Assembly (NCBI GenBank): GCA_964016885.1
Contig: OZ024743.1
Coordinates: 119,412,001 to 119,476,000, forward strand
Source: Eledone cirrhosa
Lineage: Eukaryota
DNA: 64,000 bases
Reading direction: 5' to 3'
The notes under the pieces were generated by a model. That model was not told the DNA's origin. It did no database searches and was given only the letters and a program-made list of their open reading frames with translations. Below are positions 1,720 to 56,815 of this stretch, in pieces (position 1 is the stretch's first letter; each line of letters opens with the position of its first letter). Position numbers and translations under genes: made by a program.

Positions 1720-1900
1720 TCATTTGTTAAGAGATCAATTCTTTTATCTTATGTTACATTATTTGACCAGAGATCAAATTTTTATCTCATACCACAATAT
1801 TTGTTCATAGATCAAATTAAAAAAAAAAATTTATATCATATTATTAAGCTACAGAGAAAATTTTGATTTCAGACGCCATTGTTTGCTGAGAGATCAAAAT
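1720..1900. repeat. Degenerate ~39-bp minisatellite
   Basis: Recurring (ATTTG..)AGATCAA(A)TTT unit, about 4-5 copies. Confidence 0.45.
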
Positions 1901-3699
1901 TAAAACCTAATAGAGTAATGTGTCTAAGTGTCTGACACCACATTTTCACTTATATATATTACTTGCTATAATATTGATTATAATATTGACTTCTTACACA
2001 GAATTACAAAGTACATACGATATTACCAGTAAAACGAGAATCTTTTTGACGTTGAAATAGTTACTTGTTTTCAAAAGAGGCTCTAAGAAAACCATAACAA
2101 TGTGTTCCACTAAGAAGATAGAAGAAATCCATCGTTGCTGGTGATGGCTTGCTAGTGATTACCCTGAGCATTAATGGATGAAGTTGGAATGAATTATTGA
2201 GTCCCAGCTATCTCCGTCCCTTACAGGAAACTTGAAATTAAAAATTAGAAAGTCTGGATAAAATGGTGAAGTGGACTAAGACAATTTTAATAATCTAGTC
2301 TGAAGCTGAACATCTCTAGAAGAACGATTTTCCGCTCTCGAATTCCAAGTAACGAACGAACCAATTATATCATCAGATTGGAAATCTGTTGATCTCTTTA
2401 ACCTGCAATTGTTTAGGAGATTCGTCTACAAGTGCATGTTAATGTGGTCAATATGGATCGATTGCCGATATGATGGGATATATTGTTCAGGTAATTTTTA
2501 AATGATGCAATCGTGACGATTAGATATAAAAAGGTTCACTCCACATAAATAAGTACTTAGAACGTTAAAGCCAGAAGAACACTTTAACAATTTCTTCAAT
2601 CCACCATTATGGCTTAGTGTAGTTTTGATCCAGGAAAGTTGACCTCAGCAGGATTCGAAAGTAAAAGGGCCTGTAAAAATGTTTTAAGATATTTTACCGA
2701 TATTATCGATTCTGCTAATTTCTTCAGAAACAGTGGAAAAACAGGATAAAATGCCATAATAGAAACAAAAATATGCAAGTTGAAGATACGAGTCTATCAA
2801 TAGATAAACTAGTGCTTTATCCACTCTATCATTTCGTTCCAATTAGATATATACAACACGTTTTTAGGTTGTCTGTGCATGTCAGAACTTAATTAGAAAA
2901 GCAATATCCACTATAAAATCTAGGAAAATATTAAATATTCATTAGGTGCATGAGCATGAGTGTGTATATGCGCGTCAGTGTGTGGAGGTGTTTGTATGGA
3001 TGTGTGTTTGTGTACGTACATGCTCCTACGTGCTCATACAAGTGTACATATGTTGCTATAAGTTATTTTGAAGGTATATCTCTATATACACATACGTGTC
3101 TCTGCGATTTTATATAAATGTACATTCGTAAGGCTATATGTTCGGAAAGTTTGTCCTAATTTTCAAATTTCATTAAGAACTTATACCTGTACTTTGTATA
3201 TTAGTGGCATTCATTTTCTGGTTTGCAGAGAATTACATCATTTAATGCACCAAAGTACTGCAGCAACCTTTATATACTTGTTATTCGACTACTGTTGTTG
3301 TTGCTGTTAGTCACAGGTGAAAGTAGACCGATCAGACCTATGAAGAGATAGTCAGAAGAGATCCACAGAACAATTGCTCTAGATATGGTGTCTAACATCC
3401 TAGTTGAAAACCATACAGTGCACTCCAGTATTGCAGTGATTTATCAAGCGGGTTATTGTGTGGAGGCGCCATCGCTAGAATATATATAACAACAACGATG
3501 ACTAGGGACAAGCTGAACTTTAGAAAAGTCTTGCACATTTTACTGTTCTGCTTACATGTTATATTTTCAAAAGTGATAGTTAATTTGTCACTGTGCCTAT
3601 TTGGCTTTCTGTACACTGAGTTTAGTTAACTAGAGTTAATGGTTTGTTAGATTAGGTATACTTATGGTTAAGATCAAATTGGATGTGTATATGCACTTG

Positions 3700-4790
3700 G
3701 AAACTGATGATGGCTATAGCATTAGTATTTAGGCTTGTTACTGGCTCCTCTAATCTACCACAAGGCTGACATTGAATGTGGTAAAGCAGGTGAAATGCTT
3801 GCACTTCAGGAGAGGTTTCGTCAGCCATCTATTCTATCCATGACTGCCTGCCTAAAATATTCCAGCATCTGAAGAGTCACAGGTAGGCGTTAACAGAACT
3901 ATAATGACCATTTTAAGCTGTGGGCAATCCCTATTTGACTCATAGATAGAAATATAATCTTTGTAGGATAGCCAGAACGACTTTATTTGAGGTCTAGAAG
4001 GTGTAGAGACGGGTTGATTTCACTTTTCCCACCATGAAATTGGCTAAAAGCTAGCATAATTCTTAAGAAAGGTGATCTTTCTTCTCCCACAAAACTACCA
4101 GGTAATATCATTGAAGCCAGTTGCTGACGAAGTCTATAATAATATAATACTAAACTGACTTGTTCAATCGATCCATTCCTTCAAATGAACCCAAACAGTT
4201 TTAGATGAGGAAGATCTACTCTTGTTCAAATTTTGGTTGAAGAAATAAGAAATTCCAACAGGGATATGTTTTTGTAGAAGGAAATGAAATTATGAGAACT
4301 AACGATGTAATGTGTTTTGGTTCAGAAAAGCCCATTCGTGGTCACCTTGACAGAATCTGGCGTTCCAACGTACCAAAAGACTCCTCCAATTTACAATACA
4401 ACTAATACTTCTTTATGCTCCGTAAACCTCGACACTTACTATTATAGTGAAAGCGCCTCGATGGAGAAAATGCATCCTTGCCTCCTTCGCCTCAAAACAT
4501 AAGTGTGCTGGGGGGTTTAAGACTCTTAGAGAAATATACGATGGGCTCCCTGGTATTTATGATGTTGTATCAAAGAGGATTACGTGATTTCCTGGCAATA
4601 TGCATCATGCCAAGAATTGAGTGGCGTCTGCTTTTACGCTTTGGAGACCAACATTTTATCAAAATTCAAAGAGTTAGCAAGTTCAATCCAGATGTTATAG
4701 CCAGAAATTCTGGAATTCATGCTCAGGATTTAGGCAATGCAAAAAGCGACAGACCTTCGCGATTGCCACTTAGACATTTACTTACATAGG
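3700..4790 (+). pseudogene. Decayed LINE (RTE-like) reverse-transcriptase fragment
   Basis: At ~4040-4270, frameshifted WLKASII..KKGDLS.P.NY, VYNNIILN and IDPFLQMNPNSFR*GRSTLVQIL resemble RT domains 1-2 (NQ.GFR.GRST). Outer limits are approximate. Confidence 0.6.
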
Positions 4791-41390: not shown

Positions 41391-41495
41391 ATTTTATATT
41401 GATGTCATGAAATTATTACATTGTTTCTTTCACCTAAATAGAATATACAAGCATCTTGAAAAACACACTCACGCGCGTACATGTATATATATATA

Positions 41496-42076
41496 TGTGA
41501 AGCGAAACCGTCGGTAATAGCATTTTGGATAGGTAAATATTTAAATAGTATTTTAATTTATTTAAAAGATTGTTTAATGTTTACTTGTTCCACTCATCTC
41601 AATTTTATAGTTCTAGTATCTAAAATTAATACCATTGAACAACAAATGTATTATAGACACCCTATATATTTCCGTGGGTACTTAGTACCTGTGGGGATAT
41701 TAATCTCATTTTATGTATATTCTCCCATGTGTAGAGAAGAAAGCGTTGTATCTTGCTGCTATTTTTAGTGGCGTGGCAAACAACACGTCTATAATATTAC
41801 CGCTTTAACTAACGACCAGTTTATGTGTGGGTCACTTTAACGGCCTGACCTCATACTAGCTGGCAGTAGGCGATATATTTACAAACTGTGAGACTTTACG
41901 TCCTATAGAATGGAAATAGCTATCTGAAGAGCTGATCTTTCCGTTGGAAATTCTCTGGATTTCCAATCTTTTGTGAAGCGAAACCGTCGGTAATAGCATT
42001 TTGGATAGGTAAATATTTAAATCGTATTTTAATTTATTTAAAAGATTGTTTAATGTTTACTTGTTCCGCTCATCTC

Positions 42077-42080
<4 letters not shown>
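41496..42080 (+). mobile_element. Non-coding retrozyme-like element: 476-nt monomer plus 109-nt terminal redundancy, inserted in (TA)n
   Basis: Direct repeat 41496-41604 / 41972-42080 begins inside the hammerhead; TA tracts on both sides. Confidence 0.8.
41919..41997 (+). ncRNA. Type I hammerhead ribozyme
   Basis: gctat-CTGAAGA(41924-30)-gct..ttggaaat/atttccaa..agc-GAAA(41980-83)-cc gtc gg-TA-atagc. Confidence 0.85.
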
Positions 42081-42110
<30 letters not shown>

Positions 42111-50672: not shown

Positions 50673-51087
50673 TTATATTTTTTTATTCTATGTCTAATGT
50701 TTCTTCTTTCTTTATAATATTATATAGCCCCTGATATTGAATCAATCTAATCCATTCAGATTATTTTGTCCCTATTATTCATAGAGCAACAACGGTTAAG
50801 GTTGGCACCACACAAATTCAGGGATATATGTGGGTATATGAATGTATATGTATGTATTCGCATGTGTCGTTGTATTTCTTTGTACGGTAGAGTAACCACT
50901 GAAGTGTAGTGACTGCTATAAAGCTTACACTACCCACACTTCTCGCCCTCCTAGCCAACTCGTCTATGGCCTTGACATAAATACCCCCTCCGCCTTTTGT
51001 GGTATTTTTCTCTTGGTTGTAAGAGGCTTAACTCTGTTTCTTGACCGCTGTATCACGTGATAAGTTCCCCCTCCGCCTTTCGGGATT

Positions 51088-51441
51088 CTACCAATATTTT
51101 ATTAACTTTTTTATTTCCGAGATTTGTCCTTTTAAAGTTCTAAGGTATTGGTGACCTATATATGGGTTTTTCCTGAATTTAATTTTCTTAAGTATACTTA
51201 GCATTTCAGTTTCAAAATCCTCCAGGAGTTTGTTGTATGGAGGATTCTTTCTGGATTTAAATATAGTTTTGAAATAATTACTGTTGGTTTTTCTTTTAGC
51301 TTCTTTATTATCGAAATGAAATGCTCGCCATCTCACTCTTCTTATACAAGAGTTTGTTTGTTCAATAAGTTTCCCCATGTATTCCTCATTAGATGATATA
51401 CGTATATCCTTGAGGGATGTCGGGAAGGTGAAGAATTCCAT
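51088..51441 (-). pseudogene. Inverted N-terminus of the PLE ORF
   Basis: SLKDI..Y..KLIEQ..IRRVRWRAFHF..FKS..PP..L.DFE; 51090-51192 is the reverse complement of 52664-52767. Confidence 0.85.
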
Positions 51442-51643
51442 AATTTATTAAATATTCAATCTATTGTAGAGAAAAGTGCTCAACCAGCTGGGAGCTATAT
51501 ATATTTAAAAGTTAAAAAAGGTTCAATGAATACATCAAAGAATGAGTTTTACAATAGATTGGAAGCACTTAACAGATAAGGTTTTCCAGAGTTATTAATA
51601 TTAATTCAAAATATTAACAAAAGAGATATTCTTGTAATCAATT

Positions 51644-51710
51644 TATTTTATTATACATATTTCAGAGGTACTGGGTTAAGTTCAACAGTACGTCCTCATC
51701 AGATAAAATA
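51644..51710 (-). ncRNA. Type I hammerhead in the 5' (inverted) pLTR
   Basis: Reverse complement: tattttat-CTGATGA-..gtactg/cagtac..-GAAA-tatgta-TA-ataaaata. Confidence 0.85.
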
Positions 51711-52663
51711 AGATGATGCATGACATACCCTGACATAGTAGATGGTTAAGATTCAGTCATGGTAGTGATTAACATATGACAAAACTCAATATTTATACCC
51801 TAATATTGAGAACATGAGAAAAATATATAATACAAACAATAGAGAGGGTGCGTGTAATACAGCTTAAAAAATACATGGCATCAATATAACAGTTAAAACA
51901 TTTTTATTTTATTTTAAACTACTGAAGAAAGAGGAAAGAAAGGAAAGCATAGAGGAAGAAACAGTTGATGTGAAAATATATTTAGTAGGTGCCTCGAAAA
52001 ACAAATGAAAGATGATTAAAGAGAGAGACAGAGATAAAGGGGAGTAATTTATGTTCAAGTTTATAGACAATTATCCATATATGCAATATATATCCAAACT
52101 TATTTAGTTGACCGTTAATATTCAAAATATTTAATTTAAGTTATTTCAGAGTAATGAGTAATATTTTAGGTTTTAGAAGTTAATAGGTATTTGTATTAAT
52201 ATTATATTATACTGTCAAGTTTAATTTCTAAAAGTCAAATTTTATGAAAACAAATTTAAAGGATTTACGAAACACGAGAAAGAAAATATATAATGCTTTT
52301 ATACCCTCACGAAGGTAATCTTTACCAAAATTATTTGTAATATTGACAACAGTTTATATAATATAATTTATAAAATAATTATACTTATAATTATTAAAGA
52401 ATTTATGATTAAACAGTTTGAGTGCCTAAAGGATCAACCGGCCTTATAACTAACCTTAAAGAAGTCTGAATTTTTAATTATATATATGTGTTAATCAAAA
52501 AATACACAAGGATTATAATGTCTAAAAACTTAAGGTGATACCTTTCAAATATATATAATATAATAAAATACAATAATACAATATAGTAAATAAGTAAATA
52601 ATTTTTTTTATTTTAAACTACTGAAGAAAGAGGAAAGAAAGGAAAGCATAGAGGAAGAAACAG

Positions 52664-54730
52664 CTTAAGAAAATTAAATTCAGGAAAAACCCATATATAG
52701 GTCACCAATACCTTAGAACTTTAAAAGAAAAAATCTCGAAAATAAAAAAAGTTAATAAAATATTGGTTAAATCTGACAAAACAAATAATTTATATGGGAT
52801 AAATAAAGAAGAATATAATGATTTGATTTTAAAAGAACTAAGGAAAAATTATAAAAAAGCCCCAGATGAAGATCTTACAGACATCAATAATGATGCATAT
52901 AAATTAATTGCAAAGTTAAGAATTGAAGGAAGAACCGAGCCTCTTATACCTAGACAGCCGAGGATCAATTTTAAAGATCACAAAAGAAACTTTGAGGAAG
53001 ACCTGCCAGTTAGACTGATTGCTCCATCTAAATCGGATATTGGAGTAATCAGTAAAAATATTATTGATAGAATCCTACCTATTTTGAAATTGAGGTCTAA
53101 ATTGAGCTTGTGGAAGGATACAAATAAAGTGATTGGTATAAAAATATAGATGTTAAGAAAAACCATAAATTCATCCAGATGGACATAACAAGCTATTACT
53201 CTTCCATTACGCCTAACCTACTAAATAAGGTTTTATCATACGCTTACAAACATACAGATCTAACTACGGATGAAATTGATATTATATTAACTGCTAGAAA
53301 AACTCTAATTAACTTCAACAATGAGTATTGGACCCGCTCAGATAGAAATAGAAACTTCGACATTACCATGGGATCAGCGCAAGTCACGGATCTTCTGGGG
53401 ATTTTCATCTTAAATATGATAAATAGAAAACTGCCGGAGATTACCGGTGGTTTATATAGGTACGATATTTTATTTACGGTTGTTAAACACAACAATACAG
53501 AACTAAATAGGGTAAAGAAAAATATAATTGAATTCTTTAAAAATTACGACCTTAAACTAGAGGTAGAAAGTGGCACCAAAATAGTTAATTTCCTTGATGT
53601 TACCCTTAACTTAAACTCTGGTTTTTATTACCCTTTCCATAAGCCCAATGAAAACTTAAATTACGTTAGTTATTACTCTAATCACCCTAAATCTGTGAAA
53701 AACGCAATTGTAAATAGTGTACAGAAACGCGTAACTAGAATATCTGCCAATAAATCAATATTTGATGAAAAAGCTGTATATAACAATGATGCGCCAAGAA
53801 AGGCAGGTTATAAAACTAATTGTTTCTACTTTTGGCACAAGGCCAGCAATTAACCAGTACATTACTGGTACTTTATTTTATCGACCCCGTAAGGATGAAA
53901 GGCAAAGTTAAAAATAATATAGAATATATAGACAATAATAATCTGAGTCTTAATCCTGATAAAAATAATGGCATATATAAACGAAATTCTAAAAATTCCA
54001 ATAATTATAATTCAAACACCTGTACTGTGAGTAGATCGGGGAAAAGAACCAGAACTAAATCAGTTATATGGTTTTCCCCCCTGCTCCTGTAGCAGTAAGA
54101 ACACCAATAGCTAATCTATTTTTTAAAGCTTTAGATAGTTCCTTCCCTGGTCAACATAAATACCACTCCATATTTAATAGACACACAATTAAACTTTCTT
54201 ATTCTACAACTATGAATATGGCCCAAAACATCGCTAAACTAAATAGTATAATTCTAAACCAAAATCAACATAATGCTATTAATAATAGTGTTAATATAAA
54301 TAATAATAAATTGAAATGTAATTGTAGAAATAAACCAGATTTCCCTCTTCAAAATAATTGTCTGGATAACAAATAACAACACATACAACTACATAGGGGC
54401 AACTTCTTCGACATTTAAATCGAGATTTGCGAATCACGAATGCTCATTTTCGAATTTTAATAGGAAGTCTTCGACTTCTTTATCACAACTTATATGGTCA
54501 TTAAAAGACAAAAATTTTAAATACTCGATCTTTTGGACGAAGCTTTGTAATAGTAAAATATACACAAACTCGTCTATATCAGCTAACTGCAACCTCTGCA
54601 CAAAGGAGACCCTATTAATAATTACTAATTATGAAAACTTAATTAACAAAAAAGTGAATTATTCTCAAACTACCTTCATAAATCTTTGTCTACATTCGAA
54701 GCCTCGCAAAAAGTCAGGAAAAAACACTAA
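52664..54730 (+). pseudogene. PLE reverse transcriptase + GIY-YIG endonuclease (defective)
   Basis: SDKTNNLY, KDHK, RLIAPSKS, DITSYYSSI, FDITMGS, GLYRYD (YRDD mutated), NFLDVTLNL, SNHP, CNCR..PL..C, YIG..FKSRF.NH..SF, LS.LIWSLK, CNLC.KE. Frameshift at ~53134 and a SINE insertion. Confidence 0.92.
53821..53909 (-). mobile_element. 5'-truncated tRNA SINE inserted in the PLE ORF
   Basis: Family 3' half with AAAA(C/A)TAAT flanks; removing it restores AGYKTNIEY. Confidence 0.9.
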
Positions 54731-56708
54731 ACAATCAGGCTTTAATTTTTCACGTCTCTTATCAACTGTTGGGCCTAAAAAGTCATAACGGTTTATAAAA
54801 CTTTAATAATGCTTTATCTTCTAATCGTTTATGATAGAATTAATGTTAGAATGAAGGATCCTCTTTAGATATATAAACATATTATTTGGTAACTTTTTTA
54901 CTTGATAAATATGCACACCTTAGGATTATTTGAGATATTTATCATTTTGATTCGGATCTTTATTTATCTGTCTCTGTTTTAAATATATAATTTGGATATT
55001 TAACTTGTAAATTTACCGATTATAATTGAACTGTAGATCATTCATGCATTTGCATATTTTACTAATTTTGAGTATGTTTTGGGGACTCAGAAAGTTAGAT
55101 TTGCTTTTATTTATTTTTTATATATATCTAGGTATAAATATAACAAACCATAAAAGTCGACAAATATTGGTCTCTCTCTCCACTGAACTGGAGGTAAAAC
55201 TACAATTAGAGCATTACTAATAATGATTATAATTATTTATTTATTAAATGTATACCGTTTCAGTAATACCTATAATAATATCTCTATATAGCTGTACAAA
55301 TATGTTTACCTAGTGTAATAACATACTCGTAGTTACATTTATAAATAATTTAGACACTCAAATGACTCTATATTGTTATAAGTGTTTGATATTCCCTGGA
55401 AGTTCGAATTTATATAATAATTTTTACTTAATTTAATATAATTTAATTTAATTTAATTTAATTTATTTTAATTAAATTTAGATTACTTTCGGCTTTTTCA
55501 AATATTTATCTCCTCTTTCTATCACATTCGCTAAAATATTTTAGACGTGTCTTTTGTCTACTATATATTAAAACCCTATTACATTTTATAATATATTTTT
55601 AATATTGGGCATCTTTAACTTTCGCAAACAATTCATTATTTTTATTTTTTCATTTTTATATTTATTTTGTATCTAGCCCCTATCATTAGGACTCATGTAG
55701 TTTTGACTTATATATTTAGAGTATATATCAACTAAATGAAAATAATTGATATAAAACATTAATTTTTTAACAATATATTTTAACTATATATATTTTTTTA
55801 AAATATTTTCAGTAACTTATTTACTATATTGTATTATTGTATTTTATTATATTATATTATATATATTTGAAAGGTATCACCTTAAGTCTTTAGACATTAT
55901 AATCCTTGTGTATTTTTTGATTAACACATATATATAATTAAAAATTCAGTCTTCTTTAAGGTTAGTTATAAGGCCGGTTGATCCTTTAGGCACTCAAACT
56001 GTTTAATCATAAATTCTTTAATAATTATAAGTATAATTATTTTATAAATTATATTATATAAACTGTTGTCAATATTATAAATAATTTTGGTAAAGATTAC
56101 CTTCGTGAAGGGATAAAAGCATTATATATTTTCTTTCTCGTGTTTCGTAAATCCTTTAAATTTGTTTTCATAAAATTTGAATTTTAAAAATTAAACTTGA
56201 CAGTATAATATAATATTAATACAAATACCTATTAACTTCTAAAACCTAAAATATTACTCATTACACTGAAATAACTTAAATTAAATATTTTGAATATTAA
56301 CGGTCAACTAAATAAGTTTGGATATATATTGCATATATGAATAATTGTCTATAAACTTGAACATAAATTACTCCTCTTTGTCTCTCTCTCTCTCTCTCTT
56401 TAATCATCTTTCATTTGTTTTTCGAGGCACCTACTAAATATATTTTCACATCAACTGTTTCTTCCTCTATGCTTTCCTTTCTTTCCTCTTTCTTCAGTAG
56501 TTTAAAATAAAAAATATTTTTTTGAACTGTTATATTGATGCCATGTATTTTTTAAACTGTATTACACCCACCCTCTCTATTGTTTGTATTATATATTTTT
56601 CTCATGTTCTCAATATTAAAATATAAATATTGAGTTTTGTCATATGTTAATCACTACCATGACTGAATCTTAACCATCTACTATGTCAGGGTATGTCATG
56701 CATCATCT

Positions 56709-56775
56709 TATTTTATCTGATGAGGACGTACTGTTGAACTTAACTCAGTACCTCTGAAATCTGTATAATAAAATA
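56709..56775 (+). ncRNA. Type I hammerhead in the 3' pLTR
   Basis: CTGATGA at 56717-23, GAAA at 56756-59, UA cleavage after 56767, stem I tattttat/ataaaata. Confidence 0.85.
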
Positions 56776-56815
56776 TAATTGATCACAAGAATATCTATTT
56801 TGTTAATATTTTGAA

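What the first reader, a model, noticed from the sequence alone, without database searches (positions are those of the whole stretch)
41496..42080. 476-nt non-coding retrozyme monomer inserted in (TA)n
Seen: a 109-bp direct repeat with a 476-bp period. The first copy starts with the 3' half of the hammerhead, and the complete hammerhead (41919-41997) spans into the second. There is no meaningful ORF, and TA tracts flank both sides. Inference: this is what reverse transcription slightly more than once round a 476-nt circular or tandem RNA would leave.
Basis: partly seen in the sequence, partly recalled or inferred. Interest (0 to 1): 0.75.

Follow-up and report, generated by a model that had tools for sequence, protein, structure and literature searches.

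The report
Hammerhead retrozyme copied by Penelope transposon
This is one older copy of a protein-free jumping repeat with hundreds of copies in this animal genome and a predicted self-cutting RNA, and the family's fixed ends, back-to-back arrays and two hybrid copies suggest that a Neptune-type Penelope transposon enzyme likely copied a small RNA circle into TA repeats.

Summary
Observation confirmed: a 109-bp repeat (107/109 identical), 476-bp period, type I hammerhead at 41919-41997, TA tracts on both sides. The copy belongs to a non-coding family with 893 exact hammerhead-core matches and 457-491-nt subfamilies, from fragments to a 28-unit array. I found no coding Penelope-like element (PLE) that uses it as its terminal repeat.

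It carries a PLE footprint. 120 of 140 3' ends fall at two fixed sites, and 18 of 18 scorable two-armed insertions use one site on each arm. A young Neptune-like PLE shows the same pattern, and two hybrid copies join the family to it, one exactly at both predicted cut sites.

A circular template is favoured. One variant occurs only in the 28-unit array, on both arms, and 5' ends do not pile up at the cut site (2 of 99). Cleavage and circular RNA are untested.

Verdict: a new family of a known kind (animal non-LTR retrozyme); this locus is an ordinary older 1.23-unit copy. The scan noted similar families in this genome before.

The parts
41484..41496 (.). Short (TA)n tract at the 5' junction (target microsatellite)
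   Evidence: sequence
41497..42080 (+). Whole insertion: 1.23 units of the 476-nt subfamily, 5'-truncated, single arm
41496..41604 (+). First copy of the 109-bp terminal repeat; shares 3 non-majority variants with the second copy
41497..41521 (+). 3' half of a hammerhead (GAAA, palindromic stem III, predicted cut after 41516, stem I 3' strand); predicted to pair with the core of the second hammerhead
   Evidence: sequence; constrained folding (prediction)
41517..41992 (+). Predicted 476-nt monomer between the two cut motifs; 34% GC; folds as a circle at z -5.9 against 25 shuffles
41700..41714 (+). Internal copy of the second fixed 3' end (E2, about 197 nt after the cut), a U-rich stretch just 3' of a conserved hairpin; it is the insertion end in other copies
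41919..41997 (+). Complete type I hammerhead with canonical G10.1-C11.1 pair, long stem II (upper hairpin 41944-41966), 3-bp palindromic stem III, predicted cut after 41992
41972..42080 (+). Second copy of the repeat, ending at fixed site E1, 88 nt after the predicted cut
42080..42109 (.). (TA)15 tract at the 3' junction, continuing as a compound microsatellite to about 42306

Best explanation
This is a 5'-truncated, 1.23-unit copy of a non-coding, hammerhead-bearing repeat family (an animal non-LTR retrozyme), likely inserted into (TA)n by the reverse transcriptase-endonuclease of a Neptune-type Penelope-like element, probably copying a circular 476-nt RNA. Steps: (1) multi-unit loci are transcribed (inferred); (2) neighbouring hammerheads pair through their palindromic stem III and cut out a monomer (predicted; covariation shown); (3) the monomer is closed into a circle (inferred); (4) the PLE protein nicks (TA)n and primes at one of two fixed U-rich sites, about 88 or 200 nt after the cut, one site per strand when both are used (ends shown; enzyme inferred); (5) it copies through the joined cut site for anything from part of a round to about 19 rounds. 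Here it started at the first site and stopped 20 nt past a second cut motif.
For: Copy number: 893 exact core matches, reversed-pattern control 0; 457-491-nt subfamilies at about 70-100% identity. Fixed ends: 75 E1 + 45 E2 of 140 terminal motifs in 118 loci; 18 of 18 two-armed loci with scorable ends pair E1 with E2. A young Neptune-like PLE (RT + GIY-YIG; DKG and CxxxxCxxC linker) shows the same pattern: 39 of 41 ends at +75-85 or +140-152, and all 7 two-strand loci contain both end types. Hybrids: L231 joins the retrozyme at E1 to the Neptune E1-E2 tail; L222 joins it at its predicted cut site to the sequence after Neptune's predicted cut. One template per insertion: in a two-armed 28-hammerhead array, 17 of 26 whole units are identical and all 26 share 2 variants absent from the other whole units of that subfamily in hand. 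A 27-nt pattern with one of them hits 27 times genome-wide, all in that array, on both arms. Repeats within a locus share rare variants 0.53-0.92 vs 0.12 per 100 columns (476 subfamily) and 0.16-0.29 vs 0.012 (457 subfamily). 5' ends do not gather at the cut site: 2 of 99 arms within 6 nt, about 3 expected if uniform (expectation is my arithmetic). The hybrid hammerhead is favoured over the single one by about 6 kcal/mol in this copy.
Against: No RNA evidence and no cleavage test. Under nearest-neighbour folding both active folds are rare (about 1e-5 to 1e-9). In the 2026 preprint 8 of 9 Xenopus retrozyme dimers did not cleave in vitro, and in the anole PLE cleavage was not needed for insertion. 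Each hybrid type was found only once genome-wide, the reciprocal cut-site hybrid was not found (14 hits, none a hybrid: 13 read as Neptune tail variants, none matched the retrozyme), and L222 has 6 nt of microhomology at its junction. The retrozyme and Neptune tails are not more alike than shuffles (475 of 500 shuffles as high). Within-locus pairs are not independent, and sub-lineages inflate variant sharing. In the large array two adjacent units share two changes and one change recurs in 5 of 26 units, which pure rolling-circle copying does not explain.
Confidence: 0.7

Rival explanations
1. Same non-autonomous PLE-mobilised element, but the template is a linear, uncut multi-unit transcript of a tandem source locus; the hammerhead is dispensable, as for the anole PLE in vitro.
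For: PMC11167929 found unprocessed RNA to be the main substrate and priming internal. 5' ends ignoring the cut site fit this too. For this copy a dimer transcript is enough; 14 of 99 arms hold two or more cut motifs.
Against: A variant private to one 28-unit array is on both arms and nowhere else in the assembly, so a linear source of 19 or more units carrying it would have to be missing. Other loci also carry their own locus-wide variants (8 in 16 loci of the young subfamily). Hammerhead stems covary across subfamilies about 70% identical.
Confidence: 0.17
2. The template is a cut linear monomer; the reverse transcriptase jumps from its 5' end back to its 3' end to make multimers, with no covalent circle.
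For: Hybrid L222 switches partner exactly at both predicted cut sites, which a jump between cut RNA ends would give.
Against: All 26 whole array units are exact across the cut site, and 5' ends do not gather there; jumps would be expected to leave stops or ragged joints (inference). L222 can also be read as ligation of two cut RNAs or as a switch at microhomology.
Confidence: 0.07
3. Short PLE-derived copies insert, and arrays then grow at the DNA level (slippage, unequal exchange), as proposed in the 2026 preprint; or the unit is the solo terminal repeat of a coding PLE not sampled here.
For: Two adjacent array units share two changes. The search for a coding partner sampled only a small part of the PLE copies (150 of 10,597 GIY-YIG candidates scored).
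Against: Both inverted arms, with their own E1 and E2 ends, are multimeric and share the private variant, at about 0.1% divergence. Upstream of the hammerhead, family copies run on as unit sequence until they break off in TA, an inversion or unrelated flank. Short-stem pattern searches found only deletion variants and two other non-coding elements (16 loci).
Confidence: 0.06

Closest known systems
Animal non-LTR retrozymes (coral, mussel, axolotl; Cervera and de la Pena 2020, PMC7229834; Li, Clavereau and Pollet 2026, bioRxiv 10.64898/2026.07.22.740005)
   Same: Non-coding, low-GC unit with one type I hammerhead; dispersed monomers plus dimers and multimers; co-exists with PLEs; predicted to fold strongly as a circle.
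   Different: Unit 457-491 nt (about 170-400 in PMC7229834; within the 51-972 range of the preprint); unusually long stem II; circRNA and cleavage not shown here. The parts of those papers that I read propose PLE mobilisation and rolling-circle copying but give no insertion-end, two-arm, private-variant or hybrid evidence. By the preprint's definition this copy is a 'monomer', not 'active' (one complete hammerhead).
EN+ Penelope-like elements, Neptune/Nematis type (PMC8557442) and anole Poseidon PAc (PMC11167929)
   Same: 5' truncation, partial tandems, inverted 5' copy, two alternative 3' ends (the 'tail'), (TA)n targeting, hammerhead upstream of the 3' end. E1 is 88 nt after the cut; PAc primes at +111-118 with the cut at +26.
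   Different: No RT or GIY-YIG ORF; the whole element is one 476-nt unit; E1 to E2 spacing is about 110 nt rather than 30-40 nt.
PLE and newt-type dimer-activated hammerheads (PMC4209133)
   Same: Short palindromic helix III, long helix II and short helix I; predicted to work as dimers.
   Different: Helix II of about 49 nt with an internal loop and upper hairpin; several subfamilies have U-U in place of G10.1-C11.1 (16 of 22 rows unpaired there).

Membership tests
Animal non-LTR retrozyme | Type I hammerhead in each unit | tested here: met
   Core motifs read; covariation 7 of 24 pairs, 0 of 500 shuffles; no Rfam hit
Animal non-LTR retrozyme | Short tandem repeats from dimers to multimers, plus dispersed monomers | tested here: met
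   Met for the family (arrays of 2, 3, 4 and 28 hammerheads); this copy is 1.23 units
Animal non-LTR retrozyme | Non-coding, GC under 45% | tested here: met
   GC 0.34-0.38; no ORF kept across subfamilies; no Pfam hit for the 102-codon frame
Animal non-LTR retrozyme | Two complete hammerheads ('active' by the 2026 preprint's definition) | tested here: not met
   This copy has one complete and one 3' half; other copies have two or more
Animal non-LTR retrozyme | Self-cleavage of the RNA | not testable with these tools
   Only folding and one cut-site hybrid
Animal non-LTR retrozyme | Expressed as circular monomer RNA | not testable with these tools
   Needs RNA data or bench work
Autonomous Penelope-like element | RT plus GIY-YIG ORF between terminal repeats | tested here: not met
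   Successive hammerheads are one unit (457-491 nt) apart with no ORF between; PLE protein hits lie only in flanks
PLE-mobilised element | Two fixed 3' ends, 5' truncation, inverted second arm, microsatellite target | tested here: met
   120 of 140 ends at E1 or E2; 18 of 18 two-armed loci pair E1 with E2; same pattern in the Neptune-like family
PLE-mobilised element | Sequence homology to the terminal repeat of a coding PLE (as in Xenopus) | tested here: inconclusive
   No homologous terminal repeat in 65 PLE loci or stretches; tail similarity to the Neptune-like family not above shuffles; two hybrids link them physically; PLE sampling small

The most novel reading that the evidence does not exclude
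The family is a genomic record of rolling-circle reverse transcription of a ribozyme-made RNA circle by an identified Neptune-type PLE. Two enzymes prime at two fixed sites on one circle from both sides of a nick and run up to about 19 rounds. Hybrid L222 records cleavage of both retrozyme and Neptune RNA at their predicted sites in the living cell. Even this 1.23-unit copy could release its own monomer, because its half-hammerhead is cut by the core of the complete one.
Probability: 0.4. Interest if true: 0.72.

Novelty: new member of a known kind. Interest (0 to 1): 0.5.

Why it matters
How animal retrozymes move has been proposed (circular RNA copied by PLE enzymes; PMC4209133, PMC7229834, 2026 preprint) but was not shown in the parts of those papers that I read. 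This family supplies defined priming sites, a very young array with a private variant, and a candidate partner with many intact RT-endonuclease frames. With the in vitro PLE assay of PMC11167929, that makes the model directly testable. The locus itself is an older, ordinary copy.

Tried and rejected
Rfam: no hammerhead model matched.

Sequencing runs: no RNA holder listed. The contig runs laid are of unrecorded kind and say nothing on expression; one search listed no letter differences, so it neither confirmed nor denied the array-private variant.

The degraded PLE in the window at about 51-56.8 kb is not the source: different hammerhead, no nucleotide match. The Neptune-like ORFs beside family copies in L103 and L143/L275 have their own hammerheads and are separated by TA tracts.

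A coding-circle reading was rejected.

A-to-I editing scars, a lead from earlier notes: 4 of 8 locus-wide private variants are A>G and none T>C in the young subfamily, but 2 A>G and 3 T>C of 8 in this copy's subfamily; inconclusive.

No target-site duplication could be told inside the microsatellite. In one search one of nine rows (L138) was cut wrongly and includes flank, so that consensus fold is used only for hairpin positions.

Rows dropped before counts: 12 overlapping duplicate loci, segments under 84% or 93-94% identity, L151/L152 overlapping Neptune loci. One search's 118 loci still include L226 (another element) and the two hybrids. L001-L030 were chosen for length and were left out of the 99-arm count.

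Paper searches listed no description of this family or of two-armed retrozyme insertions; only open-licence papers are covered, and the preprint's supplements could not be seen.

Full report
1. Observation. A 109-nt repeat (41496-41604 and 41972-42080, 2 mismatches) has a 476-nt period. A type I hammerhead spans 41919-41997 with a predicted cut after 41992; the first repeat holds only its 3' half, with a cut motif after 41516. TA tracts flank both ends, 13 nt on the left and 30 nt on the right. Rfam does not detect the motif. Across 22 distinct family copies, 7 of 24 pairs change on both sides, stem II above all, and slid controls fall to 21-51% paired against 91.8%. The core was fixed by the pattern used to collect them. 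No ORF is kept across subfamilies.

2. The family. The window lies at G000:C4:119.41-119.48 Mb in a 3.0-Gb animal assembly. A DNA search gave 3168 first-look candidates, 40 scored. A hammerhead-core pattern gave 893 exact matches, control 0, first 100 listed. Whole units fall into subfamilies of 457-491 nt, about 70-100% alike, GC 0.34-0.38, and 8 of 8 tested fold as circles better than shuffles (z -2.6 to -6.5, 25 shuffles each). This copy's subfamily is older (mean 5.8% from the column majority); the 457-nt subfamily is very young (0.8%).

3. PLE footprint. In 118 loci, 120 of 140 terminal cut motifs are followed by (TA)n at one of two distances: E1 (75-105 nt; 75 cases, including this copy at 88) or E2 (180-225 nt; 45 cases). 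All 18 two-armed loci with scorable ends have E1 on one arm and E2 on the other. Each site is a U-rich stretch just 3' of a conserved hairpin. Copies are 5'-truncated at scattered points, often with an inverted arm. PMC8557442 (passages) describes partial tandems, an inverted 5' copy, an optional tail and (TA)n bias for PLEs. PMC11167929 (parts 1-2 of 4) shows two internal priming sites downstream of the hammerhead.

4. Not a coding PLE, but linked to one. None of 65 loci or stretches picked for PLE ORFs had the unit as its terminal repeat; L103 has a sister copy as a separate insertion beyond a TA tract. The ORF in L103 led to a young Neptune-like family (150 scored hits at 96-100% identity, many with 775-codon frames; RT and GIY-YIG; DKG and CxxxxCxxC linker; the Neptune/Nematis label rests on PMC8557442's description, with no tree). 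It has its own hammerhead-like motif and the same two-end pattern (39 of 41 ends). Two hybrids were found among 16 short-stem loci. L231 is retrozyme up to E1, then the Neptune E1-E2 tail. L222 is retrozyme up to its predicted cut, then the sequence after Neptune's predicted cut. Each occurs once genome-wide by exact pattern, the reciprocal cut-site hybrid was not found, and the tails are not alike beyond chance. The link is therefore suggestive, not proven, and other PLE families could also serve.

5. Template. At C1:156.426-156.438 Mb a single two-armed insertion holds 19 + 9 hammerheads and ends at E1 on one arm and E2 on the other. 17 of 26 whole units are identical; all share two variants absent from the other whole units of that subfamily in hand. 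A pattern with one variant hits 27 times in the genome, all in this array. Repeats within a locus share rare variants 4-7 times (476 subfamily) and 14-24 times (457 subfamily) as often as random pairs from different loci (pairs not independent). The two repeats in the window share 3 non-majority variants. 5' ends show no excess at the cut site (2 of 99), so linear monomers with free cut ends are unlikely to be the usual template. The simplest reading is one circular molecule copied round and round. Against it: two adjacent units share two changes, one change recurs in 5 of 26 units, and a lost or unassembled source array cannot be excluded.

6. The ribozyme. Stem III is 3 bp and palindromic, the type that PMC4209133 (passages) says needs a second copy. 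In the window's 584-nt transcript the half-hammerhead can pair with the complete one in a nested fold that would cut after 41516; this is favoured over the single fold by about 6 kcal/mol, though both are rare in the computed ensemble. This is a prediction only. The 2026 preprint (parts 1-3 of 5; supplements not seen) found cleavage in 1 of 9 dimers.

7. Comparison and novelty. It works like, and at family level meets the testable defining features of, animal non-LTR retrozymes (PMC7229834: passages and sections 14 and 17). Cleavage and circular RNA could not be tested. It is not an autonomous PLE. Four paper searches listed no description of this family or of two-armed retrozyme insertions. 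Earlier notes of this scan describe similar families in this genome with two arms, fixed ends, private variants and, once, two hybrid copies; a look-up by this sequence found none. These notes are not independent support. I saw the notes before counting the E1-E2 pairing.

8. Verdict. Real feature; new member of a known kind; interest 0.5. Confidence is about 0.9 that it is a non-autonomous, PLE-mobilised hammerhead element, and about 0.7 for the full route through a circle with a Neptune-type enzyme.

Noticed in passing
window 51084-56822: Degraded PLE (RT fragments 52652-53850, GIY-YIG-like 54315-54785, SINE-like piece near 53820-53910) with 1-kb inverted repeats (51598-52595 / 55815-56822, 96%) and its own type I hammerheads at 51702(-) and 56717(+); the family has 150 scored hits at 75-100% identity.
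   Followed up: partly
window 49677(+), 24464(-) and 24559(+): Further hammerhead-like motifs found by pattern; the pair near 24.5 kb is inverted.
   Followed up: no
L201-L205 (e.g. L203:1574-6340): Young Neptune-like PLE with two overlapping frames (409 and 775 codons) and a hammerhead-like core in which C3-G8 appears replaced by U3-A8; many intact copies.
   Followed up: partly
G000:C1:156425778-156438443 (L151, L152): 28-hammerhead two-armed array of the 457-nt subfamily, about 0.1% internal divergence, with private variants.
   Followed up: yes
L216-L231: Most of these 16 loci are family copies with deletions in the long stem II, as if the hairpin was skipped during copying; L226 is an unrelated hammerhead element whose 3' end resembles the Neptune E2 end, and L230 is a divergent relative.
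   Followed up: partly
L277:4717-5341 (minus-strand count): Another hammerhead repeat with a 312-nt period, probably the roughly 310-nt family of earlier notes.
   Followed up: no
L275 minus strand 1850-4660: A second, degraded Neptune-like family (about 50-58% protein identity to the first) with its own hammerhead-like motif.
   Followed up: partly
L011, L049, L052, L130, L148 flanks: Another repeat repeatedly abuts the same TA tracts; several TA-targeting elements pile up at shared sites.
   Followed up: no
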